Source of the DNA: Gemmata obscuriglobus
Lineage (GTDB): Bacteria > Planctomycetota > Planctomycetia > Gemmatales > Gemmataceae
Reading direction: 5' to 3'
DNA length: 32,000 nt
Assembly: GCF_008065095.1 (NCBI RefSeq)
Contig: NZ_CP042911.1
Span: 5,910,001 to 5,942,000, forward strand
Below the pieces are notes generated by a model. It saw only the letters and a program-made list of their open reading frames with translations. It was not told where the DNA came from and ran no database searches. The position numbers and the translations under genes are program-made. Positions 6,781-31,670 of this stretch are shown here, one piece after another (within the stretch, counting starts at the first letter, position 1; each line of letters opens with the position of its first letter).

Positions 6781-7107
6781 TTACTCGATGGGTTCGACTT
6801 TCCAGAAAGCCTTCGGTGGTGCGGACGATGGTGAGGCGGTTTCCGAGTGGTGCTCACCCAGTGGGTGCGTTTTCTTCATGTAGGCGACAATTTGCTCGAA
6901 CTCTGCGATGGTGCCGTTTCGCTTCAGCATGTTACACCGGAAGCAAATGACTGCTACGTTTCCTGTGATGTACCCAAAGTCGTTGTGAATACGGTCTATC
7001 GACGGCGAGCGAGGAGTGCGGCAGCCCTTGAAATCCAACTCATTGCCGCAGCACGCACATGAACAGGGCACGGAGTCAGGGATCACGTCAAGATAATCGG
7101 CATGCAC
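6781..7107 (-). CDS. HNH-type nuclease domain protein; annotated start (GTG 7107) probably not the true N-terminus
   Basis: CSCACCGNEL ... SIDRIHNDFGYITGNVAVICFRCNMLKRNG is a CxxC + (D/H)...N...CxxCN..K HNH-like core. The same frame stays open upstream to a TAA at about 7192..7194 and encodes KRYSTNPHHRLRRLVGSAKYRSKVIGVE, which looks like genuine protein. Confidence 0.6.
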   Translation of the reverse strand: MHADYLDVIPDSVPCSCACCGNELDFKGCRTPRSPSIDRIHNDFGYITGNVAVICFRCNMLKRNGTIAEFEQIVAYMKKTHPLGEHHSETASPSSAPPKAFWKVEPIE

Positions 7108-7754
7108 CTCGACCCCAATAACCTTGGAGCGGTACTTGGCGCTGCCAACGAGCCGCCGCAGACGATGATGAGGGTTTGTTGAATATCGCTTTTACTCCAA
7201 CCCCGTTCTTTCTCTGAGAAATCCGGAGATTCTGCACGTTTCCGCCGGGCATTCGCGTTGAACTTTTCTTTGTTCTCTTGGCGATAAATTTTGACCGCAG
7301 CTTGCACGGCCTCTTTGTTCTGTTGGTAGTAGCGTCTCTGACCGGCCTTCCGCTTCTCCACGCGTGGGACAGCCAGGGATATGATCCGCTCGCGATTGGC
7401 GTGGTAGTACAACCTGGAATACTCCCTGCGCTCAGTTTTCTGCCTGTCGCGAGCCTCCTGTTCTGTCAGACGAACCAGGTTGCTGGGCCGGTTGTTTGTC
7501 CGCCAGCCGTCCTCGTGGATTACTTGAGTCAGGCCCGGGGGGCCTGCCACGAAGGCTTCGGCCACGAGCACATGCACGTTGCAGTGGGATCGGTTGTCGT
7601 TTTTCGAGAGGCTGACAGTCAAGTACCCCCTGCGGCGAAGAAGTTGCTGTATCATGATTCCGGCGACAAGACCGCGAATCCTGCCTGTGTTCGAGATCTC
7701 GTATAGGCCTTCATAGCCAACTACGGGCTTCCATTGTTCAATTAAAAGTGTCAT
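7083..7754 (-). CDS. NUMOD4 + HNH_3 homing-endonuclease-like protein (copy 1)
   Basis: WKPVVGYEGLYEISNTGRIR is a NUMOD4 motif. HCNVHVLVAEAFV...VIHEDGWRTNNRPSNL is an HNH_3-type core. The C-terminal part has YYxxN-rich repeats. ATG 7754 has the SD GGAGG 5 nt upstream; the track start at 7760 is a GTG. Confidence 0.8.
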   Translation of the reverse strand: MTLLIEQWKPVVGYEGLYEISNTGRIRGLVAGIMIQQLLRRRGYLTVSLSKNDNRSHCNVHVLVAEAFVAGPPGLTQVIHEDGWRTNNRPSNLVRLTEQEARDRQKTERREYSRLYYHANRERIISLAVPRVEKRKAGQRRYYQQNKEAVQAAVKIYRQENKEKFNANARRKRAESPDFSEKERGWSKSDIQQTLIIVCGGSLAAPSTAPRLLGSRCMPIILT

Positions 7755-7760
7755 ATTCAC

Positions 7761-9900: not shown

Positions 9901-11931
9901 TTAGTCCGCGTACTCGGGCTCTAAGTACGGCCGCGACACCTTGGTCACCTTTGCCGTTGGGGCCAGGGCGCCGCCCTTTTCAAACTCGACGTCGATCTTG
10001 ATGTACGGGCAGAGGATCATGACGAACCGGTTCTTCCCGACCTGGGCGAGACCGCCGTCGGTGCGGAAGTGCTTGGTCACGTCCGCGTAGGTGCTCCCGA
10101 CCTTGATTGAGTCGGCCTCCTTGAGCCGCTCGGCCAGCCAGGCGTTCGTCGTCTGGTACGCCTCCGCGTCCTTCCCCTTGAGCTGCCGCATCCCGTCGTG
10201 GGTCGGGAGGCTAATCGAGTCCTTCTGGTCACTCACTTCGAGTTCCAGTTTCCCTGTGGAGAGCCTCGCAATCATCGGGTCGACTTTGAGCGCCCCGATG
10301 GAGGAGCTGCCGAGCACCCGCTCGTACTGAAGGACGACCTTCCCGGTTCCGACTTTGAGGGGGTGGTTCTTGGTCATGGGCGTTCCACCGTCCGATCGGA
10401 GCTCGTAAGGCACTCCCGACGCCCCGTGAATACGGGTTTCGAGTACGGCCTCCTTGCCCGGTTCCAGGCTCACTTTGATCGGAGCGTGGAGCACTCCCAT
10501 GACCGCTACCGTTGCCTGTGGGATCGCTTTCCCGTCCGCCCCCGTTACGCCGGGCGGGTTCTCGTCCAGGTACTGCCGGATGTACTCGAACTTCACCGTC
10601 TCCTTCCCGACGTTGCGCACCCGGACGAGCAGAGTGACCGTCTCGCCGATGCGGTACGCACGCTCTTCCTTGATCCCGAGCCCCGCCTGCAGGCCGCCGA
10701 CTTCCTTGCCCCACGCCGTGAAGGGCTCTTTCTCAAGCGCGATCATCGTGCGCCCGTCCCCCTGAGCGGTTGCGAATGTCGTCGGGCGGACCTTCTCCCC
10801 GAAACAGACACGCAGCTTCGGCCCATCGAGTTCGTAAATGCCCGGCGACGTCGTCCCCTTCAGCGTGCCGTCGAGCGAGGTCAGGTCGATCTCTTTCGGC
10901 GTCTTATCGGGGTTCAGTTTGAACGCCATCTTGCCCGTCGACCTCGGTTGACTGGCGGTGATCTGGTCGCCCTTGATGGCCCACCTCATCCCTTCCAACA
11001 CGTCCGCAGGCACCTTCTCGCCGTCTCCCTCCATCGCCACCACCACCCATCGGCCTTGCAGGTCACCGAAGTCCGGGGCCTTCTTTGGTGGCGGAGCGGT
11101 TCGCTCCTCAACAGGGGGCTTATCGACCTGAGCCGATGCCCGTCGGTCGACGAGGCCCGCGGCCCCGACCGCCAGAAGGCCCAGCACCATGACGATGGCG
11201 ATAGCCGACTTAAGTTTGCTCACCAGCATGGCGTTTAAGACTCCTTGCGTGAGGGCTGCGACTGGACCGGTCGGACGCCCTGAGGAAGCAAGAGCCGCAA
11301 CACGAATGGCTGAAGGCGCAGAGGCCGGAAGGGCCGGCGTTCCCGCGAGGACTGCGGCCACCGAAACCGCCGGGGCGTGTCTTGCGAGCCGCTTGGCAAG
11401 CATTTCTCTCGCCCGGGACAGGCGTCCCGCAACCGTACCCTCGGGCCAACCGAGGATCAGAGCGGCTTCTTTGCGGGTCCGACTCTCCAGGTCACACAAC
11501 ACGATCACGGTGCGGTACGCCTCGGGCAGGCGGCTCAGCTCCTCGTCGAGTGCGGCCCGCAGTTCGACCAGCGGGTCGGATTCAGCCGGGCGGTCGGGCA
11601 TGTCTCCGGTCCTCTCCTTCCGCCGGACGATGGACCGGTGGGCCAGCAGCGCGGCCCTCCGCGCCACCCCGTAGAGCCAGTTCGCCACCTCCCGCGGGGC
11701 GGCCGTCCGTGCCTTCTGTGCCAGCACGAGGAACGTCGCCTGGAACGCGTCCTCGGCGTCTTGCTCGGGGAGTATTCGCCGGCAGATCCCGTACACCATC
11801 GCCCCGTGCCGACGGACCAGGAGCGCGAACGCATCCTCGTCACGGCGGTCGACGAACCGCCCCAACAGTTCCGCGTCGGTCTGTTCCTCGTCCGCGATGA
11901 CACGCAGGACCCGTGCTGTGCTCACCGGCAT
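9901..11931 (-). CDS. ECF-type sigma-70 factor fused to a TM segment and a large extracytoplasmic C-terminal region
   Basis: Start taken at MPVSTARVL (ATG 11931). Sigma region 2: LLVRRHGAMVYGICRRIL...DAEDAFQATFLVLAQKA. Region 4: LPEAYRTVIVLCDLESRTRKEAALILGWPEGTVAGRLSRAREMLAKRL. TM segment: AIAIVMVLGLLAVGAAGLV. GRWVVVAMEGDGEKVP...PKEIDL...GIYELDGPKLRVCF resembles the planctomycete TIGR03067 module. Confidence 0.85.
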   Translation of the reverse strand: MPVSTARVLRVIADEEQTDAELLGRFVDRRDEDAFALLVRRHGAMVYGICRRILPEQDAEDAFQATFLVLAQKARTAAPREVANWLYGVARRAALLAHRSIVRRKERTGDMPDRPAESDPLVELRAALDEELSRLPEAYRTVIVLCDLESRTRKEAALILGWPEGTVAGRLSRAREMLAKRLARHAPAVSVAAVLAGTPALPASAPSAIRVAALASSGRPTGPVAALTQGVLNAMLVSKLKSAIAIVMVLGLLAVGAAGLVDRRASAQVDKPPVEERTAPPPKKAPDFGDLQGRWVVVAMEGDGEKVPADVLEGMRWAIKGDQITASQPRSTGKMAFKLNPDKTPKEIDLTSLDGTLKGTTSPGIYELDGPKLRVCFGEKVRPTTFATAQGDGRTMIALEKEPFTAWGKEVGGLQAGLGIKEERAYRIGETVTLLVRVRNVGKETVKFEYIRQYLDENPPGVTGADGKAIPQATVAVMGVLHAPIKVSLEPGKEAVLETRIHGASGVPYELRSDGGTPMTKNHPLKVGTGKVVLQYERVLGSSSIGALKVDPMIARLSTGKLELEVSDQKDSISLPTHDGMRQLKGKDAEAYQTTNAWLAERLKEADSIKVGSTYADVTKHFRTDGGLAQVGKNRFVMILCPYIKIDVEFEKGGALAPTAKVTKVSRPYLEPEYAD

Positions 11932-12031
11932 GCCCGCCCTCCACACATAGATGCTGCCGGACCCCGCCGTTTTGATACACAATTTTCCGACGGTTGAGTG
12001 GCCTGCTGCGATGTGCTTCCGGAGGGGCGCG

Positions 12032-12358
12032 ATGAGCGATTTGCCGAACAGAGTCGTTCTCACCAGCGGGATGAAGCACGGCGAGGCGAAGGCGCTGCTT
12101 GCGGCTTTGTGGCCACGGATGCGTGTCATCATCTACCGCTCGACGGTGCAGCACTACAAGGAGGGGTACCCCACGGCAGAGGAACTGGAGCTCGGTGACG
12201 ACGAGGAGATGTGCCGCACACCGGGGCGGGAGGCCGTTTTACATGGGGAAATGACCGGACAGGACCTGCACCATGCGATCATGAAGGCGTTCAGCCTGGA
12301 CACAGAGCTCGATGTCGGGATTCACGGGGTGTGGAGGAAGAAGCTGAGCGAGGCGTGA
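12032..12358 (+). CDS. Hypothetical protein (108 aa)
   Basis: ATG 12032 is preceded by GGAGGGG. It is divergent from the sigma-factor gene. No family recognised. Confidence 0.45.
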   Translation: MSDLPNRVVLTSGMKHGEAKALLAALWPRMRVIIYRSTVQHYKEGYPTAEELELGDDEEMCRTPGREAVLHGEMTGQDLHHAIMKAFSLDTELDVGIHGVWRKKLSEA

Positions 12359-12480: not shown

Positions 12481-14001
12481 TTGGGAGGGCTGCGCTTGAT
12501 CCGACCGAACTCGCTATACCACGCAGATAGCCTGACGCTCCTGGAGCGGATCGACGGGGGTGTAGCCCGAACCATCTACTTGGACCCACCGTGGTTCAGC
12601 CAGCCCTCCATCGGGACGCGGGGTTCCGGCTCCCGTGTCGCGAACGGGTTGCGCGACTACCTCGATAACTTTGCCCGCGTACTCCAACAGTGCCATCGCA
12701 TCCTTGCGGATGACGGGAGCATCATCGTCCACGCCGAGCCGTCCCTCGGACAGAAATTCGCTTTGCTCCTTGAGCAGATCTTCCGCGACAACCATGTCGA
12801 CGACTACATCCTTCCCCAATTCGGGATGAATCAGGGAGTCAGGCACGCTGCACTCCTGCACTACGGCAAGAGCCAAAACACATTACTGAACGACGTCTGC
12901 CGACCGGTCGAGGAAAGCGAACATGTACGGAACCCGGATGACGACCCGAGGGGCGCGTGGCGGGCTGTTGATCTGACTACGCGGATGGATCGCCCGATGC
13001 TCCAGTTCGAGTGGCGAGGGCATCAGCCGCCCATCGGCCGATCATGGCGATACCAACTCAGCGAACTGGAACGTCTGGCTGACGAGGGCAGAATTCACTT
13101 CTCGGCTGGAGGTAGCCCCCCAAGGCTGAAGGCGTACCAATCCGAACGGCGGAGCGTCCCGGTCGGCACCATCTGGGACGACCTCCAACCTCTTCGCGGT
13201 GGGTCTGCGGAGAGGGTCGGCTTTCCATCTCAGCAGCCAGTTGCTCTGATCGAGCGGGTCATACTGCGCACCTCGAACCCGGACGATCTGGTTATCGATC
13301 CGTACTGCGGCTCGGGCACCTCGCTGGTCGCGGCGCACCGCCAGGACCGCTGCTGGATCGGGTGCGACTCGTCGCCGGAAGCGATCGAGTTGACGAGGGC
13401 GCGGCTGTCCACGGCAGGGATTGCAGAAGGGTGGCACGACCGCTCGGCTCCCGACCTGATGGCCATTGAGGCGAAGCCGATCTTCCTCCGCCGTGTCGTG
13501 ACGATGGTCGAGGATCTAAACGCGGCCGAGGTGCTTATCGCTGAAGGCGAGAGCGAATTCGTCGAGTGGAAGGTCTCTGCTTACTGGAACGCCTTCAACA
13601 GCCAGAAGGACGAGAAGAACAAAGAGAAGCTCATCCGCTCTGTCGCCGCGTTCCTGAACAGCCAGGACGGCGGCACGATCCTGATCGGGGTCGCCAACGA
13701 CGGCACGCTTCCCGGCTTAATCGACGATTACAAGGCAACTAATTCCCAGCGACCGGGGCGTGACAGCTACGAGCTTTGGATGCGGCAGACCCTGCGTGAC
13801 AGGCTCGGCAAGGAGTTCGATCCGTTCGTGAAGATCGCTTTTGACGAAGTTCGTGGGCAGGACGTGTGCATCATTCGGGTTGCAGGGGGCAATCGGCCGG
13901 CTTGCAATTTAGACAAGCTCCCAATCCGCCGCGGCAACCAAACTGTGGACCTGCCGCTGAAGGAAGCGATAGAGTATAGCCGGATACGGTGGCCGTTGTG
14001 A
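12481..14001 (+). CDS. Beta-class (N6_N4_Mtase type) DNA methyltransferase fused to a C-terminal AlbA_2 / Schlafen-like domain
   Basis: Motif IV DPPW is at 12583..12594, near the N-terminus. Motif I DLVIDPYCGSGTSLVAAH lies about 260 aa later, which is the beta-class order. The C-terminal ~160 aa (EGESEFVEWKVS...IRSVAAFLNSQDGGTILIGVANDGTLPGL...VCIIRVAGGNRP...PIRRGNQT) matches the AlbA_2 pattern. Start is TTG at 12481 or 12496. Confidence 0.85.
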   Translation: MGGLRLIRPNSLYHADSLTLLERIDGGVARTIYLDPPWFSQPSIGTRGSGSRVANGLRDYLDNFARVLQQCHRILADDGSIIVHAEPSLGQKFALLLEQIFRDNHVDDYILPQFGMNQGVRHAALLHYGKSQNTLLNDVCRPVEESEHVRNPDDDPRGAWRAVDLTTRMDRPMLQFEWRGHQPPIGRSWRYQLSELERLADEGRIHFSAGGSPPRLKAYQSERRSVPVGTIWDDLQPLRGGSAERVGFPSQQPVALIERVILRTSNPDDLVIDPYCGSGTSLVAAHRQDRCWIGCDSSPEAIELTRARLSTAGIAEGWHDRSAPDLMAIEAKPIFLRRVVTMVEDLNAAEVLIAEGESEFVEWKVSAYWNAFNSQKDEKNKEKLIRSVAAFLNSQDGGTILIGVANDGTLPGLIDDYKATNSQRPGRDSYELWMRQTLRDRLGKEFDPFVKIAFDEVRGQDVCIIRVAGGNRPACNLDKLPIRRGNQTVDLPLKEAIEYSRIRWPL

Positions 14002-14020: not shown

Positions 14021-14491
14021 TCATTCCCCTGTCGCGGCATATTGGAAGGCGGCAATGGCAATGCGAGCCTCCGGTTGGTACTCACCCCAGTGTCGAGAGG
14101 CGTAGGTCTCGGCGTCGTTGTAATCGCCTCGCTGCCTCTGCCGGTAGTCTTCGGCTGCAAGTGCTCGGGCGACTCGCTCCACCTTCGCCCCATGTGCTGA
14201 CTGCTGTGCTTTCCTCACGGATTCACGCACCGCCTCCCACGTTAAAGGGCTGCAATTCCAGCCAAGTGCTTTGGCTTCCTCGTAAGAATTTGGCAGCCCC
14301 TCATTTGGTGCTGGGGGCTTGAGGGCGGGGAGGAGTGCAAGAGCTTTGGCTGCCTGAGTTCCGTCTCGTGTGGTGGACAAAGTGCTTCCAACGTTGCCAG
14401 AAATCTCGGTGCGTGAAACCGTAATCGCGGTGGCCCCAGCGTAGAACTCCAACACCTTCTTCACTTGCTCGTATGCTTCCGTGCGATCCAT
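14021..14491 (-). CDS. Hypothetical protein (156 aa), last gene of the phage-like operon
   Basis: Intact ORF, 2 nt after the upstream gene's stop. No family recognised. Confidence 0.55.
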   Translation of the reverse strand: MDRTEAYEQVKKVLEFYAGATAITVSRTEISGNVGSTLSTTRDGTQAAKALALLPALKPPAPNEGLPNSYEEAKALGWNCSPLTWEAVRESVRKAQQSAHGAKVERVARALAAEDYRQRQRGDYNDAETYASRHWGEYQPEARIAIAAFQYAATGE

Positions 14492-14493
14492 GC

Positions 14494-14970
14494 TCAGCCC
14501 TCCTGCTTTGGTGCTGCCGCAAGCATCGCTCGATAAGCCTCTTTCTGGCTTTCAAAGCGTCCAAATCGGAGATCAGTGCTAACGCGCTCCATGTTTCGGT
14601 CAATCACGTCGAAGTACGCCTTCTGCATCTCCAGCGTGATTTCCTCCGGCACCAGGCGAAACCCCGGCGGCTGAGATAGGATGGGCAGGATGTCCAGGGC
14701 CGCTTTGGCTTCAGCGTGGAACTGGATCAAGTCGTAGTCGTCTGGGTCTGAGCTTTCCTGCTTGCAGAAGGCGGCACGAATCGCTACCGCCACCCGCTCC
14801 ACCATCTCATCCGTGGCACCCGTAGCAGGCTGGTTCAGGAGAGCGAGAGCTTGTGCTTCAGTGAGTGCGATACGCCCAGAGTCCTTGTGGTGCCAGTATT
14901 CTGCCCCGAGAGCATTCCGATGGAATTTCCATCCGGCAGCTTCCAAAAGCGATTCGGTATGTTCAGTCAT
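14494..14970 (-). CDS. Hypothetical phage-like protein (158 aa)
   Basis: Intact ORF overlapping the upstream gene by 8 nt. LVPEEITLEMQKAY resembles a motif common in small prophage proteins (recalled from memory). Confidence 0.55.
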   Translation of the reverse strand: MTEHTESLLEAAGWKFHRNALGAEYWHHKDSGRIALTEAQALALLNQPATGATDEMVERVAVAIRAAFCKQESSDPDDYDLIQFHAEAKAALDILPILSQPPGFRLVPEEITLEMQKAYFDVIDRNMERVSTDLRFGRFESQKEAYRAMLAAAPKQEG

Positions 14971-15220
14971 GGCTGATTCCTTTCAGTGGTTTGGTGGAGG
15001 CCTTCTGCTCGCTGCGGTAGATCAGCCACGCCATCGGTACGGGCGGCAGGAAGAACCATGCGGCAGCTTTAAGAAGTTCGCCTTCGAGCAGATAGCAACC
15101 CGCGATAACGCCGCCGATTCCGGGGAGGAAGGGGATACCCGAGAACAGCCCCCACGGGAGCACGAGAAGGATGAGGTAGATACGGGTAATGGCTACATGT
15201 GCGCTCGGGGCTTTATGCAT
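14963..15220 (-). CDS. Small membrane protein (85 aa)
   Basis: Hydrophobic stretches IYLILLVLPWGLFSGIPFL and AAAWFFLPPVPMAWLI. SD-like AAAGGAA lies upstream of the ATG. Confidence 0.45.
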   Translation of the reverse strand: MHKAPSAHVAITRIYLILLVLPWGLFSGIPFLPGIGGVIAGCYLLEGELLKAAAWFFLPPVPMAWLIYRSEQKASTKPLKGISHD

Positions 15221-15279
15221 GACTGATTCCTTTCAGTTTGCGGTTGGAGGCACAAGCCGCGAGAAGTGCGTGGCCGGAC

Positions 15280-15486
15280 TCATGGAGCCGCCTTCGTGCG
15301 GTTGGTCTTGTCCGACATCGATTCCGGAATCACGCAATCCGCCAGGCCGATGTTGTGGGTCAGGCAGAAGCGGTAGAACTCTGTGTCGCTGATGTTGGGA
15401 CGAGTCAGGCCATAAGCCGCCGATGCTAATCCGGTAAGCAGTACGAATCCCGCAACGGCTCCCGCTGCAAAATCACTCTTGCTCAT
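15280..15486 (-). CDS. Small membrane protein (68 aa, MSKSDFAAGAVAGFVLLTGLASAAYGL...)
   Basis: Its ATG overlaps the upstream stop as ATGA (15483..15486). It is the 3' part of track ORF 15280..15780, whose upstream part overlaps the better-supported 15483..15881 frame. Confidence 0.45.
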   Translation of the reverse strand: MSKSDFAAGAVAGFVLLTGLASAAYGLTRPNISDTEFYRFCLTHNIGLADCVIPESMSDKTNRTKAAP

Positions 15487-15881
15487 TCCGTGCCCTCCTG
15501 CTTCCGGGCTGCGGGGAGAGGCATCCAGTGGGTTGCTGATTGCGTTGTGGCGGAACCGTGGCCATCCATTCCATCGTCGTAGATAATCCAAACCGTACCA
15601 TGCTTGTTCACTGAGCCAGTTACAACAGGGCACTGAAGGAGCGAGGGCACGAACAGGAGAATCTCCGTGCCATCCCTCGGCGCGCTTTCGATTGGCAGCC
15701 ACTGCTGCGTAAGTGCAGGGAGAGACGCACGAGCGGCCACCACCTTCTTGAACGCGGCTTCGAGTTCTTCCGACTGCCACCCACCGCTATCCGAGCCACG
15801 GTCGCAGACCTCCTCAAACGCAAGGATTGAATCGAGGGCATCTGCCACCATTCTGACGGTATCTTCAAACGCGGCCTTCAT
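15483..15881 (-). CDS. DUF551-like phage protein (132 aa)
   Basis: WLPIESAPRDGTEILLF ... ATHWMPLP matches the DUF551 pattern (W.P..e.lP ... THWMPLP). Confidence 0.6.
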   Translation of the reverse strand: MKAAFEDTVRMVADALDSILAFEEVCDRGSDSGGWQSEELEAAFKKVVAARASLPALTQQWLPIESAPRDGTEILLFVPSLLQCPVVTGSVNKHGTVWIIYDDGMDGHGSATTQSATHWMPLPAARKQEGTE

Positions 15882-16141
15882 GCCTTCGCCCTTTCGGCCA
15901 GCATGGCGTCGGCCAAGTCGTATGCTGCCGAAGCAAAAGCTTCTGATACCGACACGCCCAGTTCATTGGCGGTTGACTTGATAAAGTTTGTGGTATTGCG
16001 CTGCATAATCGGCGCTAGTGCCGCCGCCGCAAAGTAATCGCGGAGCGTCATGCCGTGTTCAGGCCAACAGAACTGGTCATTGGGCAAGCCGGACATGCCC
16101 GGAATTGGAAATGCTTGGGGGTTCTCTAGCTTACCGCTCAC
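15878..16141 (-). CDS. Hypothetical phage-like protein (87 aa, GTG start; an internal ATG start is also possible)
   Basis: GMTLRDYFAAAALAPIM is a motif I recall from small prophage proteins. Overlaps the next gene by 4 nt. Confidence 0.5.
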   Translation of the reverse strand: MSGKLENPQAFPIPGMSGLPNDQFCWPEHGMTLRDYFAAAALAPIMQRNTTNFIKSTANELGVSVSEAFASAAYDLADAMLAERAKA

Positions 16142-16164
16142 GTCACCTCTCTACCCGCTCCTCG

Positions 16165-16211
16165 GTGTAGCAGCCGCATGATTACAGCGACGTACCCGGC
16201 GGCAGCTACAC
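16165..16211. promoter_or_regulatory. 13-bp imperfect inverted repeat (12/13) with 21-nt spacer in the divergent control region
   Basis: GTGTAGCAGCCGC (16165..16177) against GCGGCAGCTACAC (16199..16211), 24-70 nt upstream of the operon start at 16141. Confidence 0.3.
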
Positions 16212-16537
16212 GGAGAAGCGGAAGGGAAAGGTTGTACGTCGCAGAAGTGACCGTGCCACAGCTCGGCGGTTCGCGCAAGCGGTTTCTTCGGACACGGGTC
16301 GCAAGGCGTGCAGGCGGCTGCTGGAAACATCGTCCCCGTATCCCTACAGTTTAGTTGGTGCCCGTGTCAGCATAACGTGTGCTGGTGGTTTGCCCGATGC
16401 CGGTCCTGCCAGCACCCAATTTTCGGTGTGCCGCCACCCTGTTGCCCCATCGACATGGCGGCGAACCTTTAGCAGTGATCCGTTCGGGCAGGGACTCAAG
16501 GAATCCGGCAAATTCCCAAGCTAGAAAAGAGGGCGCG

Positions 16538-17299
16538 ATGTCGTTCGCCGTTCTTAATCCAGCGACAGCCGCATTCTACAAGCTCGCCGCCGTGGATTCG
16601 ATCTTGAAGCCGCCGGCCGCTGGCACCCAAGCCGCGCATCTCGTCGATATGCGAGACCGCCTGAACCGCTTCCCAAGCGCCCCTCCAGATCGCCCAGCCC
16701 ATATAGACACAGAACTTCCCCTCCGCCGCAGCTTGCGGAAGATCGTACGTGGCGAGAATCTTCTTGAAGCGGCATTGCTATGGGATCCGCCTTCTGCTGG
16801 GGCGAGCGACACTGATGCCAAAAAAATCACCTCTGGGCGTCGAGGCCTCCAATGGAAGCTCGTGATGGCCTACGGAGGATTCGAATTGTTAGCCAAGGCG
16901 GTCTTGAACCGTACCAAGCAAGGGCTGGGGCCTAACGATTTTACCGATCTTGTCGGGGCTTGTGTATTGCCAGCGTTCAACCAGATAACTGTGCCGGCTT
17001 TGACGCAGCAGCAGTGGGATGACTGGTTTGATGGAATGGCGGCGCCTGACGACTACCTTGATTTTCTCGGCGTCGATGGTGGAGACAAAAACGCACTTCA
17101 ATCTTGGCTTCGCGATGGCATTGCGGTCACCACCTGGCCAGGCTGTATATCACTAGCGAAAGCATTGCGAAACCCAATCGCACACGGCTCACTCTCTCCG
17201 CGCAAGGTCAACGAGTGGAAGCTAACTGAAGCTATCAAGCGGCTTCCCAGCGATCTCGCGGTTATCGCCGCAGCCGCCTTGACGTGCCTCACCCTCTGA
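16538..17299 (+). CDS. Hypothetical protein with HEPN-like Rx4H motif (253 aa)
   Basis: Start taken at MSFAVLN (ATG 16538). ISLAKALRNPIAHGSLS (R211-H216, nt 17168..17185) fits the HEPN R-N-x-x-x-H signature near the C-terminus and is followed by one more helix-like segment. Codon usage is lower in G+C than in core genes. Confidence 0.55.
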   Translation: MSFAVLNPATAAFYKLAAVDSILKPPAAGTQAAHLVDMRDRLNRFPSAPPDRPAHIDTELPLRRSLRKIVRGENLLEAALLWDPPSAGASDTDAKKITSGRRGLQWKLVMAYGGFELLAKAVLNRTKQGLGPNDFTDLVGACVLPAFNQITVPALTQQQWDDWFDGMAAPDDYLDFLGVDGGDKNALQSWLRDGIAVTTWPGCISLAKALRNPIAHGSLSPRKVNEWKLTEAIKRLPSDLAVIAAAALTCLTL

Positions 17300-17320
17300 T
17301 GCTCTTTACCGTTGGCTTTG

Positions 17321-17383
17321 CCCCGCTTCCAAGTGCCGACCAGTTTGGTGGCGTCGTGCGGGGCTTCTTTGGGCGATGGCCGG
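17321..17383 (+). terminator. Putative terminator hairpin after the HEPN-like gene
   Basis: GCCCCGC ... GCGGGGC stem with an inner CCAA/TTGG pairing, followed by TTCTTTGGG. Confidence 0.3.
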
Positions 17384-17408
17384 CGTGTGCTCGCTTCGCT
17401 GACGAACT

Positions 17409-17963
17409 TCACACCGTCCAGTCCAGCGCCACAAGCCCGATCACCAATTCCGAGATGGCTTCGCGGATCGCGGTGATTGCGTGAGCGGGAAGCTGATCGT
17501 GCAGGGAGATCGAGATGAGCCCCTCGTGCCGAAAGGCCGTGGTCTGCTCCCGCGCCTGATCGAAAAGCTCCTCGACATCCTCGACCAGTTCCGCGTTCTC
17601 CCCGCTGAGACCCATCGACCTGGCGCTGAAGGAGATCTGCAACTGGTAGTGCGGGAGCTTCTTCTTGTCCCAGTGCTGAACGAGAACGTAGAAGACGAAG
17701 ATCGGTTTCGATCGGTCGGGGTGGCGGATTTTGAAGATCGCATCCATCCCCTTTAGCTCTGATTCCTGCCTGCCTTCAATGAACGTCTCGACGCCCCACG
17801 CCGTGCGCTGCTCTTCCGAGAGCCACCATTGGGCAAGGTCGTCGAGTTGCTGGCCACCTGTAGCTACTTCCGCAGGCTTGCAAAGCAGACACCGATCCGG
17901 CTGATCGAGCGCCAAGAGATGCGGGATGTTTACAGGTTGGTTGACTTCCAAGACCGCATCCAT
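17409..17963 (-). CDS. Hypothetical protein (184 aa from MDAVLEVNQ)
   Basis: Intact ORF convergent with the HEPN-like gene. No family recognised. Same lower-G+C look. Confidence 0.5.
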   Translation of the reverse strand: MDAVLEVNQPVNIPHLLALDQPDRCLLCKPAEVATGGQQLDDLAQWWLSEEQRTAWGVETFIEGRQESELKGMDAIFKIRHPDRSKPIFVFYVLVQHWDKKKLPHYQLQISFSARSMGLSGENAELVEDVEELFDQAREQTTAFRHEGLISISLHDQLPAHAITAIREAISELVIGLVALDWTV

Positions 17964-18038
17964 CTGATCGTCCTCACGGTGGCAACTTCGGCTCCGAAAG
18001 CTCAAGCTACTCGCCCCTTCGTTTCGCCGCAACGTGCC

Positions 18039-18091
18039 TCACGCCTTATCGAGGCACGCGTCCACCACCCAGCACCCTCTCACGTGCGGTC
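18039..18091 (-). pseudogene. Displaced 3' end (last 17 codons) of the paralog-family gene cut by the IS3 element
   Basis: Reading on from 19333 after deleting the IS and one GTC copy gives ...HCRGEGPHVRGCWVVDACLDKA*. Confidence 0.75.
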
Positions 18092-18135
18092 TACAGTGGA
18101 CCCCATTGTCTAGACCAAAAAGTTGCTATCCTTCG

Positions 18136-18906
18136 CTACTGTTTCGTCGGGGCCTTCGTGGCTCCGACGCCATACACCTGAGCCGGGGTGCGGTAGTCCA
18201 GGGACTGGTGTAACCGCTCGGTGTTGTAGAACCCGAAGTACGCCCGGAGCCCACTCTCCAGGGCCGGCACCGACTCGTAACCCTTGAGGTACACGTCCTC
18301 GTACTTGACGCTCCGCCACAGGCGCTCCACGAACACGTTGTCCAGGCACCGGCCCCGCCCGTCCATGCTCACCGCGACCCCGGCCCGCTCCAATCGCCCG
18401 ACCCACGCGGCGGCCGTGAACTGGACTCCCTGGTCCGTGTTGAACACCTCCGGCTTGCCCCGGCCCAAGGCCTCCTCCAGCATGTCCTGGCAGAATGACC
18501 CGTCCAACGTGTTGGACAGTCGCCAGGCCACCACGTACCGGCTGAACCAGTCCATCGTTGCGGCCAGGTACATGAACCCGGTGGGCATCGGGATGTACGT
18601 GATGTCCGTGCTCCACACCTGATGGACCCGGTCGATGGCCACGCCCCGCAACAGGTACGGGTACACCTTGTGCCCGGACCCGACCGACAGCTTGGGCTTG
18701 GGGTACAGGGCCTCCAACCCCATGATCCGCAACAGCCGCTGCACCCGCTTGCGGTTCACCTCGTGGCCCTGGGTGCCCAGCCACGCGGCCAGGCGCCGGC
18801 TCCCGTAGAACGGGCACGTCGTGTACTGCTCGTCGATCAACCGCATCAGCGTCAGGTTCTCCGCGCTCTCCGGGGTCGGCTCGTAGTACACCGTCGAGCG
18901 GTTCAA
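18136..18906 (-). CDS. IS3-family transposase OrfB (DDE / rve core); the frame is open upstream to the A-run at about 18997
   Basis: WSTDITYI, FNTDQGVQF and DNVFVERLWRSVKYE give the D, D, E context. The upstream extension reads KNRPPSAEAKRARIEAEHPELSVRRQCELIGLNRSTVYY. Confidence 0.9.
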   Translation of the reverse strand: MNRSTVYYEPTPESAENLTLMRLIDEQYTTCPFYGSRRLAAWLGTQGHEVNRKRVQRLLRIMGLEALYPKPKLSVGSGHKVYPYLLRGVAIDRVHQVWSTDITYIPMPTGFMYLAATMDWFSRYVVAWRLSNTLDGSFCQDMLEEALGRGKPEVFNTDQGVQFTAAAWVGRLERAGVAVSMDGRGRCLDNVFVERLWRSVKYEDVYLKGYESVPALESGLRAYFGFYNTERLHQSLDYRTPAQVYGVGATKAPTKQ

Positions 18907-18976
18907 TCCGATCAGCTCGCACTGGCGCCGGACGCTCAGCTCCGGGTGCTCGGCCTCGATCCGGGCACGCTTGGCC

Positions 18977-19264
18977 TCAGCCGAGGGCGGCCGATTTTTT
19001 TTTCACCCAGTCGAGTTCCACCTTGAGGCGGCCGATCTGCTCGTACAACTCGGTCGTCTTGTCTTCCGGGGGGCCGGTGCCCTTCGCCCCCGAGGCGAAC
19101 ACGGCCTCGGCCCCGGTGAGCAACTGCTTCTTCCACCCATGAATCAGGGTCGGGTGGACGCCGTGCTGACTCGCCAGTTCGTTGATGGTCTTGTCGCCCT
19201 TGAGGGCCGCCAGCGCGACCTGGGCCTTGAACGCCGCCGAGTGACTCTTCCGCTTGCCCGCCAT
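18977..19264 (-). CDS. IS3-family transposase OrfA (HTH)
   Basis: MAGKRKSHSAAFKAQVALAALKGDKTINELASQHGVHPTLIHGWKKQL... is typical of IS3/IS911 OrfA. It ends just after the A9 run. Confidence 0.9.
   Translation of the reverse strand: MAGKRKSHSAAFKAQVALAALKGDKTINELASQHGVHPTLIHGWKKQLLTGAEAVFASGAKGTGPPEDKTTELYEQIGRLKVELDWVKKKSAALG
18995..19003 (-). promoter_or_regulatory. A9 homopolymer (T9 on the plus strand) at the orfA/orfB junction; recoding or slippage site
   Basis: The minus strand reads GTG AAA AAA AAA TCG. orfB is in the +1 frame relative to orfA (codon phase 19264 mod 3 = 1 against 18906 mod 3 = 0). Confidence 0.6.
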
Positions 19265-19324
19265 GGGTTCCCCTTTCCTGGGCCTCCGGTATAGCTTAAC
19301 CGGCGGTCCAGTTTTCGGGGTCCA

Positions 19325-19813
19325 CTATAGTCCTTCTCCCCGGCAGTGCGTCAGAATCGCTTCGTCCGCGCATCCCGCATCCTGGAGGGCGTCAGCCAGG
19401 ATCGGCATCGCGGAGAAGTCCTTGCAGTCGTACATCGCTTGCGCGAGTGCAAGGACGGTATCGGTCCGCCACTCGGGGAGGAACTCGCACGGGGTGAGGA
19501 TCTCAGCAACGACGTCGAGGTATTCCGGGCCGTCGGGCGTGTCGTCGAGCGGTGATGACGGAGGCGGTAGCTTCCACTCCTGCATTCCTTGGTTCTCGGC
19601 AACCAGCGTTACGGTTGAGCCGTCTTCCAGTGTGATAACTTCGGGCAATGCATATTCAGTTGTCAGGGCGATGGTTGTTGGTGGAAGGTCTTCTTCTTCG
19701 ATTACAGCAGCACGGACCTCATGGGGGACAAGGCACCACATGGAACGGATGCACGCACACGCCAGAAGGCGGAGCTTGCGGGGAGACGCATCCGGTAGGA
19801 GATGGAGGGACAT
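19325..19813 (-). pseudogene. Planctomycete paralog-family protein (C-terminal ...LADALQDAGC...HCR..GPHVRGCWVVD type), 3' end clipped by IS3
   Basis: RKLRLLACACIRSMW... and ILADALQDAGCADEAILTHCRGEG. The current stop (TAG) lies inside the IS terminus. Confidence 0.7.
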
Positions 19814-19924: not shown

Positions 19925-20446
19925 TCAGAGAACGTGTTTCCAAGTCAGACCGAGCCAAAGACTCCGAACAGTGCCTCCGGAGACGCCAAATCGCGTAGCA
20001 AGCTGATCTGAGGTCGCTGTGCCTTTCAGGGAACGCAGTTCCCGAACTTGCTGATGCGTCAACTTCGGGATGCCATTAGAACGAAGGCCGTTCGCCACGG
20101 CGTGGAGAAAATTCTCGTAGTGAGTCGCGTACTCAAGATTATTCGGCGCGTTATTTGTTTTATCGCCGTCTTTGTGGTTGATTGTAGCCCCGTTGGGGCG
20201 TGGGCCAATAAATGCAGCGCAGACGGCGCCGTGCGCAGTAAGGTTGTACACCTCGCCTTCGCAGGTCAGCCTGAAACACAAATAGCCCTTGTGGTTTGTG
20301 GCAGGTTTTAGCACCCTTCCTGCTGGGCACCCACCGGCGGCTTTGATCCTCCGGATTCTCCCTAGGTTTGACACCTGATGTGTTGACTCAAGGCCTGGTA
20401 GTGATCTCCATTCTTCTGTTGCGAATTTCGCATCCTTCTGTATCAT
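19925..20446 (-). CDS. NUMOD4 + HNH_3 homing-endonuclease-like protein with C-terminal HTH (copy 2, 173 aa)
   Basis: EEWRSLPGLESTHQVSNLGRIRR (NUMOD4). LTAHGAVCAAFIGPRPNGATINHKDGDKTNNAPNNLE (HNH_3). LTHQQVRELRSL...LATRFGVSGGTVRSL (HTH). ATG 20446 has GGAGG 4 nt upstream. Confidence 0.8.
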   Translation of the reverse strand: MIQKDAKFATEEWRSLPGLESTHQVSNLGRIRRIKAAGGCPAGRVLKPATNHKGYLCFRLTCEGEVYNLTAHGAVCAAFIGPRPNGATINHKDGDKTNNAPNNLEYATHYENFLHAVANGLRSNGIPKLTHQQVRELRSLKGTATSDQLATRFGVSGGTVRSLWLGLTWKHVL

Positions 20447-20513
20447 TTCACCTCCATCGTAAAGCAATGGAGAGAATAACCCTTGTGTGAAAACGCGCAA
20501 GGGTTTTCTTTTG
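20447..20513 (-). promoter_or_regulatory. Conserved 5' leader of HNH copy 2 (SD-sequestering hairpin plus upstream hairpin)
   Basis: CTCCAT (20452..20457) pairs with ATGGAG (20467..20472) with a 9-nt loop, so the SD lies in the 3' arm on the minus-strand RNA. A hairpin pairs 20478..20485 with 20498..20505 and is followed on the plus strand by TTTTCTTTTG. The 3' half is nearly identical to 7806..7826. Confidence 0.5.
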
Positions 20514-30473: not shown

Positions 30474-31670
30474 GTGTGCCAGGCATGTTGCGTATGAGGA
30501 GGTGGAAGTCCTCCGCGGGCCGTGGTGAGCGGAACCGCAAGGCGAGGCAAGGGTGCCCGTCGCGAGGCGGAATCTGAAGGAAGCCGAAGCCCCCAGTCGG
30601 GAGCCGACGAACAGGAACCGGATATCAGGCCGGCGTGGCGGGGTCAGCGGGCAACGGACCGCGAAGCCCAATCTCACTCGGACGCACACGCGGGTAAATC
30701 CGGCGGTCGCTCGACGAAGCAACGCAACTTACCCTGGGAGATCTCCCGATCCGCGAAGGCGATCTTCGCACCGCGACCGGTAACGGTGGGGGGATGGTTC
30801 GGGAGAAGTCAGCCGAGGCCGTAGTAACTCGTCCGTCCGGTGGAGCGATCCACGGGGGAGGCACCCACACCTCGTAAGGACGAACGAAGGGCCGAACTTA
30901 ATGTGCCAAGGAGCAGCCGGAGCCGACTCGATGGGCGTGAAGCGACCGCAAGGCCGGCCGGACCAACGGACCCTCTTCGAGGGCTCGGAGGCCGACCGGC
31001 GCCACGACACAACCGGCGAAGGCGGAACCGGAGCGGGTGTGGTCGAGGAGTCACAAGCGTCTGCGGCGTTGGAGCCGTCACGCGCCTTGACGGATCGTCT
31101 GATGGAGGAGGTGTGCCAGCGAGGCAATCTCAACCAAGCTTACTCTCGGGTGAAGGCGAACAAAGGGGCACCGGGAATCGACGGGATGACCGTCGAGGAC
31201 TCGCTCCGCTGGATCGCCGAGCACAAGCAGGAACTGCTGTCGAGTCTGCTCGACGGGTCGTATCGTCCGAGTCCGGTGCGTGGGGTTTTGATCCCGAAGC
31301 CGGGCGGAGGCGAGCGGCAGTTAGGGATTCCGACGGTGGTGGATCGTCTGGTTCAGCAGGCGATTCTGCAAGTGCTGACGCGTTTGTTGGACCCGACCTT
31401 TTCGGAATCCAGCTACGGCTTCCGTCCCGGCAAGAGCGCTCACCAGGCGCTGTTGAAGGCGAAGGAGTACGTGGCGGATGGTCGAGCGATTGTGGTGGAC
31501 GTGGACCTGGAGAAGTTTTTCGACCGGGTGAACCACGACATCCTGATGGCCCGGCTGGCGCGTCGTGTGTCGGACACGCGCTTGTTGCGGATCGTGCGTC
31601 GCTTCCTGGAAGCGGGGCTGATGCAAGACGGTGTGTGTGTCGCACGTCACGAGGGGACGCCGCAAGGGGG
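30474..31670 (+). mobile_element. Group II intron, 5' ribozyme domains plus truncated RT ORF (cut by IS3)
   Basis: GTGTG (a GUGYG-like 5' end) at 30474 directly abuts the terminator T-tract. About 430 nt of structured-looking, non-coding GC-rich sequence follows, and then the RT ORF. The 5' boundary is inferred. Confidence 0.65.
30931..31670 (+). pseudogene. Group II intron reverse transcriptase / maturase, truncated after RT motif 4 (alternative ATG at 30901)
   Basis: NLNQAYSRVKANKGAPGIDGMT, IPKPGGGERQLGIPTVVDRLVQQA, YGFRPGKSAHQAL, VVDVDLEKFFDRVNHDIL, GTPQGG. The reading frame then runs into the IS terminus at 31671. Confidence 0.85.

What the first reader, a model, noticed from the sequence alone, without database searches (positions are those of the whole stretch)
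16142..18038. HEPN-motif protein convergent with an unknown 184-aa protein in a lower-G+C islet
The 253-aa product of 16538..17299 carries ALRNPIAHG (R211 to H216) about 40 residues from its C-terminus. This is the R-N-x-x-x-H form of the HEPN RNase signature, in the usual position before the last helix. Its only partner is a convergent 184-aa ORF (17409..17963) of unrecognisable family.

Both genes have visibly lower third-position G+C than the flanking genes. They lie between a phage-like operon and the end of a paralog-family gene hit by IS3. HEPN proteins are commonly toxins or effectors of abortive-infection and TA systems. I could not match either protein to a described family by eye, so this may be a two-gene defence or toxin-immunity pair.
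Basis: partly seen in the sequence, partly recalled or inferred. Interest (0 to 1): 0.65.

Follow-up and report, generated by a model that had tools for sequence, protein, structure and literature searches.

The report
Solo HEPN-like RNase gene, no partner
The 253-aa gene is real and belongs to an unnamed family that looks like HEPN-type RNases, but the neighbouring 184-aa gene is not its partner, so this is one orphan predicted RNase on a mobile island, not a two-gene defence or toxin-immunity system.

Summary
The window comes from Gemmata obscuriglobus. ORF A (16538-17299, +, 253 aa) carries ALRNPIAHG. R211 and H216 are almost invariant in 86 diverse relatives, and the residue after R is N, H or D in 95% of motif-bearing relatives.

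A confident AlphaFold model (pLDDT 92) places the motif at the end of the penultimate core helix. A conserved glutamate (E116) lies in an earlier long helix, and a 75-residue variable insert separates the two helices. This matches the published HEPN layout. However, Foldseek, Pfam, NCBIfam, PADLOC and PDB profile searches gave no significant HEPN match. HEPN membership is therefore likely but not proven.

The pairing idea fails:
- None of 85 other loci that encode A relatives has a B relative.
- None of 5 loci that encode B relatives has an A relative.
- In the closest relative, B follows the paralog-family gene that IS3 splits here, and similarity stops at B's stop codon.
- A has the third-position G+C of the phage-like operon to its left. 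B does not.

Outside cyanobacteria, the recurring companions of the A family are leucine-rich-like repeat proteins, beta-propellers (often fused) and DUF2779 nucleases. None of these is in this window.

Verdict: a new HEPN-like family member, solo here. Interest is modest.

The parts
16538..17299 (+). Gene A: 253-aa stand-alone HEPN-like protein, a predicted metal-independent RNase of an unnamed family
   Evidence: ORF. It has 7 relatives in the 5.8-billion-protein search and 205 representative clusters in the exhaustive profile search. AlphaFold2 model: pLDDT 91.8, pTM 0.91, all-alpha.
17168..17185 (+). Codons R211-N-P-I-A-H216, the Rx4H motif and predicted catalytic residues, at the C-terminal end of helix 200-216
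   Evidence: R is present in 84/86 and H in 85/86 relatives, and the following G in 84/86. The residue after R is N (84), H (41) or D (10) of 142 motif-bearing relatives.
16841..16885 (+). Codons R102-E116 (RGLQWKLVMAYGGFE), the second conserved block. It lies in long helix 93-123 and includes the near-invariant acidic residue E116.
   Evidence: R102 83/86, Q105 78/86, W106 85/86, G114 79/86, E116 83/86.
16907..17134 (+). Codons about 124-199: a poorly conserved helical insert between the two conserved helices
   Evidence: Few conserved columns fall in this stretch. The model shows short helices 132-140, 157-165, 172-177 and 181-192.
16142..16537 (.). 396-nt divergent intergenic region between the phage-like operon (minus strand) and gene A. 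A purine-rich AAAAGAGGG lies at 16525-16533, just before the ATG.
   Evidence: Sequence. No sigma-70-like promoter, tandem repeat or Rfam match was found here.
17409..17963 (-). Gene B: 184-aa protein of unknown fold, a neighbour and not a partner. In relatives it belongs with the co-directional upstream paralog-family gene.
   Evidence: Only two relatives were found: P0010 (85% identity) and P0011 (36%). L011-L013 keep the order upstream gene, then B, without A. The AlphaFold model is poor (pLDDT 55) and has no fold match.
18039..18096 (-). 3' remnant of the paralog-family gene, cut off by IS3
   Evidence: It translates to ...HCRPHVRGCWVVDACLDKA*. It is collinear with the intact gene in L011.
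18097..19324 (-). IS3-family insertion sequence with terminal TGGACCCC / GGGGTCCA repeats. The blastn breakpoints are about 18092 and 19337.
   Evidence: Pfam HTH_Tnp_1 and rve hits on its ORFs. Breakpoints against L011 are and the element ends.
19331..19813 (-). 5' part of the paralog-family gene (the ORF runs on to 19325). Its 3' region matches the L011 gene at 70-80% identity.
14021..16141 (-). Phage-like small-gene operon, divergent from A and with the same GC3 as A. It probably belongs to the same foreign block.
   Evidence: phrog_2201 at 2.5e-14 for the 87-aa product and a weak DUF551 hit for the 132-aa product. GC3 is 0.60-0.69, against 0.61 for A.

Best explanation
Gene A encodes a stand-alone member of an unnamed protein family that is most likely a new branch of the HEPN superfamily of metal-independent endoribonucleases.

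Inferred mechanism, by analogy with characterised HEPN RNases:
- R211, N212 and H216, at the end of the third core helix, form the active site together with E116 (and R102/Q105) on the second core helix.
- The enzyme would cut RNA and leave a 2',3'-cyclic phosphate.
- It is probably active only when two copies are brought together.

Across the family, the domain sits where an effector would. It is fused to, or encoded next to, beta-propeller, WD40, RCC1-like or leucine-rich-type repeat proteins, which plausibly act as sensors or scaffolds.

In G. obscuriglobus the gene is a solo copy. It is cargo of a low-GC3 mobile island that also carries a relaxase, IS elements, HNH endonucleases, methylases and phage-like genes.

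Gene B is not its antitoxin or immunity protein. B is the downstream gene of a separate cassette whose first gene is the paralog-family gene split by IS3.

Shown: the conservation pattern, the predicted topology, the fusions and neighbours, and the lack of A-B co-occurrence.
Inferred: RNase activity, dimer-dependent activation, and a role in defence or conflict.
For: Motif and family:
- R211, H216 and G217 are conserved in at least 84 of 86 relatives that share only about 20-40% identity.
- The residue after R is N, H or D in 135 of 142. The HEPN survey describes this as typical (PMC3710099).

Topology:
- The AlphaFold2 model has pLDDT 91.8 and pTM 0.91, with helices 59-81, 93-123, 200-216 and 230-252.
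- The motif lies at the end of helix 200-216, running into the loop before the last long helix.
- Acidic E116 lies in helix 93-123.
- A variable insert spans 124-199.
- These three points are how PMC3710099 describes the HEPN domain.

Weak profile signal:
- Among the 25 sub-threshold Pfam families shown (31 matched) for the 86 members, five are HEPN families: HEPN_RiboL-PSP, HEPN_Apea, Csx1_HEPN, pEK499_p136 and DUF4209. DUF4209 overlaps the C6orf70 HEPN family.

Effector-type architectures:
- PQQ_2 propeller plus A domain (P0012, P0013, P0019).
- A domain plus WD40 (P0029, P0095).
- RCC1-like plus A domain (P0063, P0080).
- A domain plus TIGR02996 plus LRR_6 (P0045).
- LRR-like neighbours or fusions occur in L003-L008, L043, L044 and L046, and in at least 13 of the 42 metagenome loci.
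- DUF2779 neighbours occur in L003, L043, L044, L076 and L079.
- One locus lies behind a helicase, TGT, helicase cluster (L077).

Not a pair with B.

Island context.
Against: - Foldseek found no solved or viral structure with E < 0.1 for a high-confidence model. In particular it found no HEPN structure.
- HMMER profiles of the whole family and of the insert-deleted core found no HEPN chain in the PDB.
- No Pfam, NCBIfam or PADLOC family reaches significance, even with the family consensus as query.
- No relative was found on plasmids, in phage genomes or in viral contigs.
- In Nostocales the gene sits stably downstream of a chlH/cobN-like gene. This looks more like a resident chromosomal gene than a mobile defence gene.
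- No regulator or inhibitor of a potentially toxic RNase could be identified for the solo form.
Confidence: 0.55

Rival explanations
1. A is a HEPN toxin or abortive-infection effector, and the convergent gene B is its antitoxin or immunity protein, forming a two-gene module.
For: The genes are adjacent in G. obscuriglobus, 109 nt apart, and both are orphans without family assignment. Many HEPN proteins are toxins of two-gene systems (PMC3710099).
Against: - No B relative occurs in any of the 85 other loci that encode an A relative.
- No A relative occurs next to B relatives in L009-L013.
- In L011-L013, B follows the paralog-family gene, and nucleotide similarity to the window ends at B's stop codon.
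- The orientation is convergent, so the two genes cannot be co-transcribed.
- GC3 is 0.61 for A and 0.76 for B.
Confidence: 0.06
2. A is a HEPN-type RNase or RNA-binding protein with a resident cellular role, such as RNA processing or turnover. It is not a defence or conflict effector. The Gemmata copy was simply acquired horizontally.
For: - In 13 or more Nostocales genomes the gene keeps its position downstream of a chlH/cobN-like gene. It lies downstream of chlB in Microcoleus-type genomes and downstream of gltS in Trichodesmium-type genomes.
- No partner gene is conserved there. The nearby hicB-hicA pair is self-contained.
- The family is absent from plasmid, phage and viral collections.
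Against: - The distribution across phyla is patchy.
- The domain is repeatedly fused or adjacent to LRR-like and beta-propeller repeat proteins and to DUF2779 nucleases.
- Variable, toxin-antitoxin-rich DNA lies immediately downstream in cyanobacteria.
- In Gemmata the gene sits in a low-GC3 mobile island.
Confidence: 0.2
3. A is not a HEPN homologue. It is a novel all-alpha fold in which an RNxxAHG-like motif arose independently, with some other function such as ligand binding, scaffolding or a different catalytic chemistry.
For: - A pLDDT-92 model has no Foldseek match below E = 0.1 in the PDB or BFVD.
- No significant profile hit to any HEPN family or HEPN chain was found.
- The motif pattern alone occurs 4 times in the six-frame translation of this G+C-rich window.
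Against: - Five independent HEPN hallmarks coincide: Rx4H, N/H/D after R, the motif at the end of the penultimate core helix, an upstream conserved acidic residue in the preceding long helix, and a variable insert between the two helices.
- Sub-threshold Pfam hits are enriched for HEPN families.
- Foldseek is weak on small helical bundles that are interrupted by long inserts (my own assessment).
Confidence: 0.15

Closest known systems
HEPN superfamily RNases (Anantharaman et al. 2013, PMC3710099), e.g. [quoted passage not shown]
   Same: - A conserved Rx4H motif with N, H or D after R and a small residue before H (RNxxAHG).
- The motif lies at the end of the third core helix.
- A conserved acidic residue lies in the second core helix.
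- A variable insert separates helices 2 and 3.
- The fold is all-alpha.
- The domain occurs as a terminal domain fused to repeat modules.
   Different: - No significant sequence-profile or Foldseek match to any described HEPN family.
- It has an extra N-terminal region of about 55 residues and an unusually long insert of about 75 residues.
- It has a family-specific QWRLVMAYGGFE block.
- No Pfam, NCBIfam or PADLOC model covers it.
HEPN-MNT (HepT-MntA) type II/VII toxin-antitoxin modules
   Same: A small HEPN-type protein with an Rx4H motif that could be toxic as an RNase.
   Different: No nucleotidyltransferase (MNT) gene is adjacent here or in any related locus. No conserved small partner exists at all. 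A is about twice the size of HepT.
Repeat-sensor plus effector proteins of prokaryotic conflict systems (Kaur et al. 2020/2021, PMC8195603): effectors such as HEPN joined to beta-propeller, WD40, TPR or LRR modules
   Same: Family members are fused to PQQ-type or WD40 propellers, RCC1-like repeats or LRRs, or lie next to LRR-like repeat proteins. The A domain occupies a terminal, effector-like position.
   Different: No STAND, AP-GTPase or other NTPase switch was seen in the fusions scanned. The Gemmata copy has no repeat module in cis or in the window.
Single-gene abortive-infection HEPN proteins (e.g. AbiV, AbiU2, AbiJ-type) carried by prophages and plasmids
   Same: A solitary HEPN-like gene at the edge of a phage-like or mobile block, divergently transcribed from phage-type genes.
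   Different: No homology to those Abi families (Pfam and PADLOC negative). No relatives in phage, plasmid or viral-contig collections. No phenotype is known.

Membership tests
HEPN superfamily | Conserved Rx4-6H motif | tested here: met
   R211-x4-H216. R is present in 84/86 and H in 85/86 aligned relatives. 142 of 155 family sequences carry RxxxxH[GA].
HEPN superfamily | Polar residue (mostly N, D or H) immediately after the conserved R | tested here: met
   N 84, H 41 and D 10 of 142. The criterion is quoted from PMC3710099.
HEPN superfamily | Motif at the end of core helix 3 and the start of the loop to helix 4 | tested here: met
   In the AlphaFold2 model, R211 to H216 end helix 200-216. 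The last long helix is 230-252. This rests on a predicted structure, not a solved one.
HEPN superfamily | Conserved acidic residue upstream, in core helix 2 | tested here: met
   E116 is E in 83/86 and D in 2/86, and lies within helix 93-123.
HEPN superfamily | Variable insert between helices 2 and 3 | tested here: met
   Residues 124-199 are poorly conserved and contain short helices.
HEPN superfamily | Four-helix up-and-down bundle that superposes on solved HEPN domains | tested here: inconclusive
   Foldseek of the full-length model against the PDB and BFVD gave no hit with E < 0.1 and no HEPN among the top 50.
HEPN superfamily | Profile-level homology to established HEPN families (HHpred 75-98% in the defining survey) | tested here: inconclusive
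   HMMER-level tests gave only sub-threshold hits: HEPN_RiboL-PSP 0.083, HEPN_Apea 0.11, Csx1_HEPN 0.14, pEK499_p136 0.22 and DUF4209 0.19. Nothing was found in the PDB. HHpred against Pfam or PDB70 was not available.
HEPN superfamily | Metal-independent endoribonuclease activity that depends on R and H | not testable with these tools
   This needs biochemistry.
Two-gene toxin-antitoxin or toxin-immunity pair (A with B) | The two genes co-occur in other genomes | tested here: not met
   0 of 85 loci with an A relative contain a B relative. 0 of 5 loci with a B relative contain an A relative.
Two-gene toxin-antitoxin or toxin-immunity pair (A with B) | Co-directional, closely spaced or overlapping genes forming one operon | tested here: not met
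   The genes are convergent with stop codons 109 nt apart. Synteny with L011 breaks at B's stop codon.
HEPN-MNT toxin-antitoxin | Adjacent minimal nucleotidyltransferase antitoxin gene | tested here: not met
   No NTase-type Pfam hit was found in neighbours of A in the window. None was seen in the related loci inspected.
Described Abi / anti-phage defence proteins (PADLOC-DB, Pfam Abi families) | Significant match to a defence-system model | tested here: not met
   PADLOC gave 0 families for A, for B, and for fused or neighbouring proteins of relatives. Pfam gave 0.
Polymorphic toxin with downstream immunity gene | N-terminal secretion or trafficking region, C-terminal toxin domain, and a co-directional immunity gene immediately downstream | tested here: not met
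   A is a 253-aa solo protein. On inspection, the long fusion proteins start without a signal-peptide-like N-terminus. Downstream genes are not conserved.

The most novel reading that the evidence does not exclude
The A domain defines a previously undescribed HEPN-like RNase family that is the effector of an uncharacterised sensor-effector system. In this system, leucine-rich-type repeat proteins or beta-propellers (fused or adjacent) recognise an invader, often alongside a Cas4-like DUF2779 nuclease, and assemble the RNase without any NTPase switch. The solo Gemmata and cyanobacterial copies would be stripped-down versions that work with repeat proteins encoded elsewhere. Gemmata has a large TIGR02996-LRR paralog family, and one family member (P0045) is fused to exactly that architecture.
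Probability: 0.2. Interest if true: 0.6.

Novelty: new member of a known kind. Interest (0 to 1): 0.33.

Why it matters
If the HEPN assignment holds, this adds one more unnamed family to an already very large RNase superfamily. The family has about 200 clusters at 50% identity. It is concentrated in filamentous cyanobacteria, Verrucomicrobia and Planctomycetes, groups that are poorly covered by current defence-system catalogues.

The practical value for this window is negative but useful. The two genes should not be annotated or tested as a toxin-antitoxin pair.

The more interesting lead lies outside the window. The A domain repeatedly occurs with LRR-like repeat proteins, beta-propellers and DUF2779 nucleases. 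None of these matches a PADLOC model, so together they may form an undescribed conflict system.

Tried and rejected
1. HicB as a partner. In five Nostoc loci a hicB-like gene starts 7-13 nt after A. It is followed by its own hicA toxin, and the same hicBA pair occurs elsewhere without A. Rejected.

2. An RNA antitoxin or regulatory RNA in the 396-nt leader or the 109-nt spacer. No tandem repeats, no notable repeats and no Rfam hit. The promoter and terminator scans were at background level.

3. PDB sequence searches with A, with the family profile and with an insert-deleted core profile. These gave only ferritin, armadillo and fucanase noise.

4. Foldseek of the A model against the PDB and BFVD. 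Nothing below E = 0.1.

5. Family consensus sequences against Pfam. Nothing.

6. Structure prediction of the insert-deleted core.

7. Third large homology search, with the core profile at E <= 10, hoping for Pfam-labelled HEPN intermediates. Only 4 family fragments came back.

8. Supplement of the HEPN survey as a source of reference alignments. Only an HTML index is held.

9. Plasmid, phage and viral-contig searches for A, and a viral-contig search for B. No hits.

10. Structure of B. pLDDT 55, and no meaningful Foldseek match.

11. Neighbours of A relatives as B-like proteins (the L001 141-aa and L003 230-aa products). No similarity to B. The 230-aa protein is an LRR-like repeat protein.

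12. Other in-window RNxxAHG-like matches. They lie in spurious frames.
Full report
**What is there.**
The window comes from Gemmata obscuriglobus. The exact 253-aa protein is encoded in GCA_000171775.1 and in CP025958.1 at about 2.08-2.10 Mb.

ORF A (16538-17299, +) encodes 253 aa and contains ALRNPIAHG, with R211 and H216. A purine-rich AAAAGAGGG lies just upstream of the ATG. Relatives start at the equivalent position, so the annotated start is reasonable.

ORF B (17409-17963, -) encodes 184 aa and is convergent with A. Their stop codons are 109 nt apart.

To the right, an IS3-family element interrupts a paralog-family gene:
- The element has terminal repeats TGGACCCC / GGGGTCCA at 18097-18104 and 19317-19324.
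- The gene's 3' remnant ends at 18039, 75 nt upstream of B's start codon.

To the left lies a minus-strand operon of small phage-like genes. The hits are phrog_2201 at 2.5e-14 and a weak DUF551 match.

**Composition.**
The 'islet' claim holds only in part.
- GC3 is 0.61 for A, indistinguishable from the phage-like operon (0.60-0.69).
- GC3 is 0.76 for B and 0.67 for the paralog gene.
- Genome-typical genes here reach about 0.9: the histidine kinase is 0.92 and the IS3 ORFs are 0.89-0.95.

The whole stretch from about 6.5 to 20.5 kb has low G+C. It is full of mobile-element genes:
- a TrwC relaxase;
- an IS66 transposase;
- two NUMOD4-HNH endonucleases;
- an N6/N4 methylase fused to an AlbA_2/Schlafen domain;
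- a C5 methylase.

By composition, A belongs with the block to its left, not with B.

**Is A a HEPN protein?**
Neither A nor B matches Pfam, NCBIfam, PHROGs, PADLOC or PDB sequences. A has only 7 relatives in the word-indexed search. The exhaustive profile search found 205 representative clusters, mostly solo proteins of about 250 aa.

Conservation in an alignment of 86 relatives with only about 20-40% identity:
- R211 84/86
- H216 85/86
- G217 84/86
- L219 84/86
- S220 79/86
- R102 83/86
- Q105 78/86
- W106 85/86
- E116 83/86

The residue after the arginine is N, H or D in 135 of 142 motif-bearing sequences. The defining survey of the superfamily gives exactly this signature (PMC3710099).

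AlphaFold2 on this alignment gave a confident all-alpha model (pLDDT 91.8, pTM 0.91). Its long helices are 59-81, 93-123, 200-216 and 230-252, with short helices between residues 124 and 199.

According to PMC3710099, in HEPN domains:
- a conserved acidic residue sits in helix 2;
- a poorly conserved insert separates helices 2 and 3.

All three points map onto the model. R211-H216 end helix 200-216, E116 lies in helix 93-123, and residues 124-199 are variable.

When the 86 members were scanned at E <= 10, five of the 25 sub-threshold Pfam families shown (31 matched) were HEPN families:
- HEPN_RiboL-PSP
- HEPN_Apea
- Csx1_HEPN
- pEK499_p136
- DUF4209, which overlaps the C6orf70 HEPN family

Evidence against a HEPN assignment:
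- Foldseek of the model against the PDB and BFVD found nothing below E = 0.1 and no HEPN among the listed hits.
- HMMER profiles of the family, and of a core with the insert removed, found no HEPN chain in the PDB.
- Consensus queries against Pfam were empty.
- The motif pattern by itself is not rare in this G+C-rich DNA. It occurs 4 times in the six-frame translation against about 0.9 expected, and the other three matches lie in spurious frames.

I therefore rate HEPN membership as likely, at about 0.6-0.65. It rests on five concordant hallmarks and lacks confirmation by significant structural or profile similarity.

**Is B the partner?**
No.
- B has only two relatives: P0010 at 85% identity and P0011 at 36%.
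- In L011-L013, the B relative is preceded, co-directionally, by the intact form of the gene that IS3 splits in the window.
- Downstream it is followed by unrelated co-directional genes. Nucleotide similarity to the window ends at B's stop codon, at position 17414.
- In L009 and L010 the flanks differ again, and no A relative is present.
- Conversely, tblastn with B found nothing in 8 contigs with A relatives (L001-L008), in 35 genome loci or in 42 metagenome loci.

The convergent orientation and the different GC3 values point the same way.

B itself stays unassigned. Its model is poor (pLDDT 55) and Foldseek gave nothing. The three B-family sequences share C25-x-x-C28, H97, H105 and H155. With only three sequences this means little.

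**What accompanies the A family elsewhere?**
In filamentous cyanobacteria (Nostoc, Scytonema, Tolypothrix, Microcoleus, Trichodesmium and others), the gene is solo and holds lineage-specific positions:
- downstream of a chlH/cobN-like gene;
- downstream of chlB;
- downstream of gltS.

Variable DNA lies beyond it, with hicBA, xisH/xisI-like and Uma2-type genes. The adjacent hicB has its own hicA, so it is not a partner.

Outside cyanobacteria the pattern differs, and the same companions recur:
- **LRR-like repeat proteins.** These carry 'LxGLTxLSDxAAxALxKHxGxL'-type repeats. They are adjacent in L003-L008 (4-nt overlap), L043 and L044. The A domain is fused to such a repeat protein in L046 (a 1405-aa ORF with 23 repeats). 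They are also adjacent in at least 13 of the 42 metagenome loci.
- **Repeat-module fusions.** PQQ-type propellers, WD40, RCC1-like repeats and a TIGR02996-LRR_6 module are fused to the domain.
- **DUF2779.** This family has weak similarity to Cas4 nucleases. It is adjacent in L003, L043, L044, L076 and L079.
- **DNA-metabolism and defence-type neighbours.** SbcCD-like Metallophos plus SMC genes flank L003 and L087. A DEAD-helicase, TGT, DEAD-helicase cluster precedes L077.

None of these proteins matches a PADLOC model. No relative was found on plasmids, in phage genomes or in viral contigs.

Terminal effector domains such as HEPN joined to beta-propeller or similar repeat modules are a known theme in prokaryotic conflict systems (PMC8195603).

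**Mechanism proposed.**
Shown:
- a conserved R-N/H/D-x3-H-G motif and a conserved glutamate on two long helices of a confidently predicted helical protein;
- an effector-like position in fusions;
- no conserved small partner.

Inferred from characterised HEPN enzymes (PMC3710099):
- metal-independent RNA cleavage by H216, assisted by R211, N212 and E116;
- activity gated by bringing two copies together, with the repeat modules of fused or adjacent proteins as sensors or scaffolds.

How the solo Gemmata copy is controlled is unknown. Its long divergent leader contains no recognisable RNA element.

**Verdict.**
- The sequence observation is real.
- The HEPN reading is plausible and now better founded.
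- The two-gene system is not supported.
- The gene is best filed as a solo member of a new, unnamed HEPN-like family, carried on a mobile island.

Novelty is that of a new member of a known kind, and interest is modest. The LRR-like / propeller / DUF2779 association seen in other organisms is the part worth following up.

Noticed in passing
L003 2791-6675; L043 4596-8906; L044 3769-8434; L076; L079: A three-part neighbourhood recurs around A-family genes in Verrucomicrobia-type contigs: an LRR-like repeat protein, the HEPN-like A gene, and a DUF2779 (weakly Cas4-like) nuclease. In L003 the LRR-like gene overlaps A by 4 nt. No PADLOC match for any part.
   Followed up: partly
L052 46-6680; L054; L055; L068 2690-6543: Lake-metagenome contigs share a conserved gene order: a 148-aa protein, a protein of about 530 aa similar to the N-terminal part of the A fusions, a propeller-A fusion of about 930 aa, then one or two LRR-like proteins with an N-terminal PHD/zinc-ribbon-like CxxC...CxxC region.
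   Followed up: partly
L077 144-6603: An A-family gene is the last gene of a cluster made of a DEAD helicase (with HHH and SWIM domains), a TGT-family protein and a second DEAD helicase. From memory this resembles 7-deazaguanine (Dpd-type) DNA-modification clusters.
   Followed up: no
L024, L029-L032, L035-L042 (Nostocales); L016, L017, L025; L022, L023, L033: In cyanobacteria the A-family gene keeps lineage-specific positions just downstream of large housekeeping genes (chlH/cobN-like, chlB, gltS). TA-rich variable DNA lies beyond it.
   Followed up: partly
P0045 (907 aa, from the representative search): An A domain is fused to a TIGR02996 'repeat-companion' domain and LRR_6 repeats, the architecture typical of the large Gemmata paralog family. 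Its motif is degenerate (LRDATAGG, H replaced by G), so this copy may be inactive.
   Followed up: partly
window 17409-18096 and 19331-19813; L011 1-1075: B and the upstream paralog-family gene (C-terminus ...AMPILADALQDAGC..ILTHCRG..PH.RGCW) are conserved together in L011-L013. In the window, IS3 (about 18097-19324) has split the upstream gene 75 nt before B, and may have disturbed B's expression.
   Followed up: partly
window 17409-17963 (protein B): The three known B-family sequences share C25-x-x-C28, H97, H105, PHYQLQI and SISLH155. This could be a metal site, but with three sequences it carries little weight.
   Followed up: no
window 12481-14001: An N6/N4 DNA methyltransferase is fused to a C-terminal AlbA_2/Schlafen-type domain. 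It lies next to the phage-like operon.
   Followed up: no
window 2251-6477: The 5' end of a TrwC-type relaxase/helicase ORF (2251-5031, minus strand) is overlapped by an IS66-family transposase ORF (4954-6477, plus strand). This suggests a degraded conjugative element.
   Followed up: no
window 7083-7760 and 19925-20500: Two NUMOD4 plus HNH_3 homing-endonuclease-like genes, both with very low GC3 (0.65 and 0.54), lie near the two ends of the low-G+C region.
   Followed up: no
window 9901-12132: A 743-aa protein carries an ECF sigma-factor domain fused to a planctomycete-specific TIGR03067 domain.
   Followed up: no
window 30556-30892: Rfam matches to group II intron domains D1-D4 on the plus strand: RF02001 at 112.9 bits and RF01998 at 47.6 bits.
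   Followed up: no
window 17284-17484 (+): A 61- to 66-aa ORF starts at the end of A and overlaps the 3' end of B on the opposite strand. It is called as a gene in one public assembly (L051 7870-8055). It was not checked for conservation and is probably spurious.
   Followed up: no
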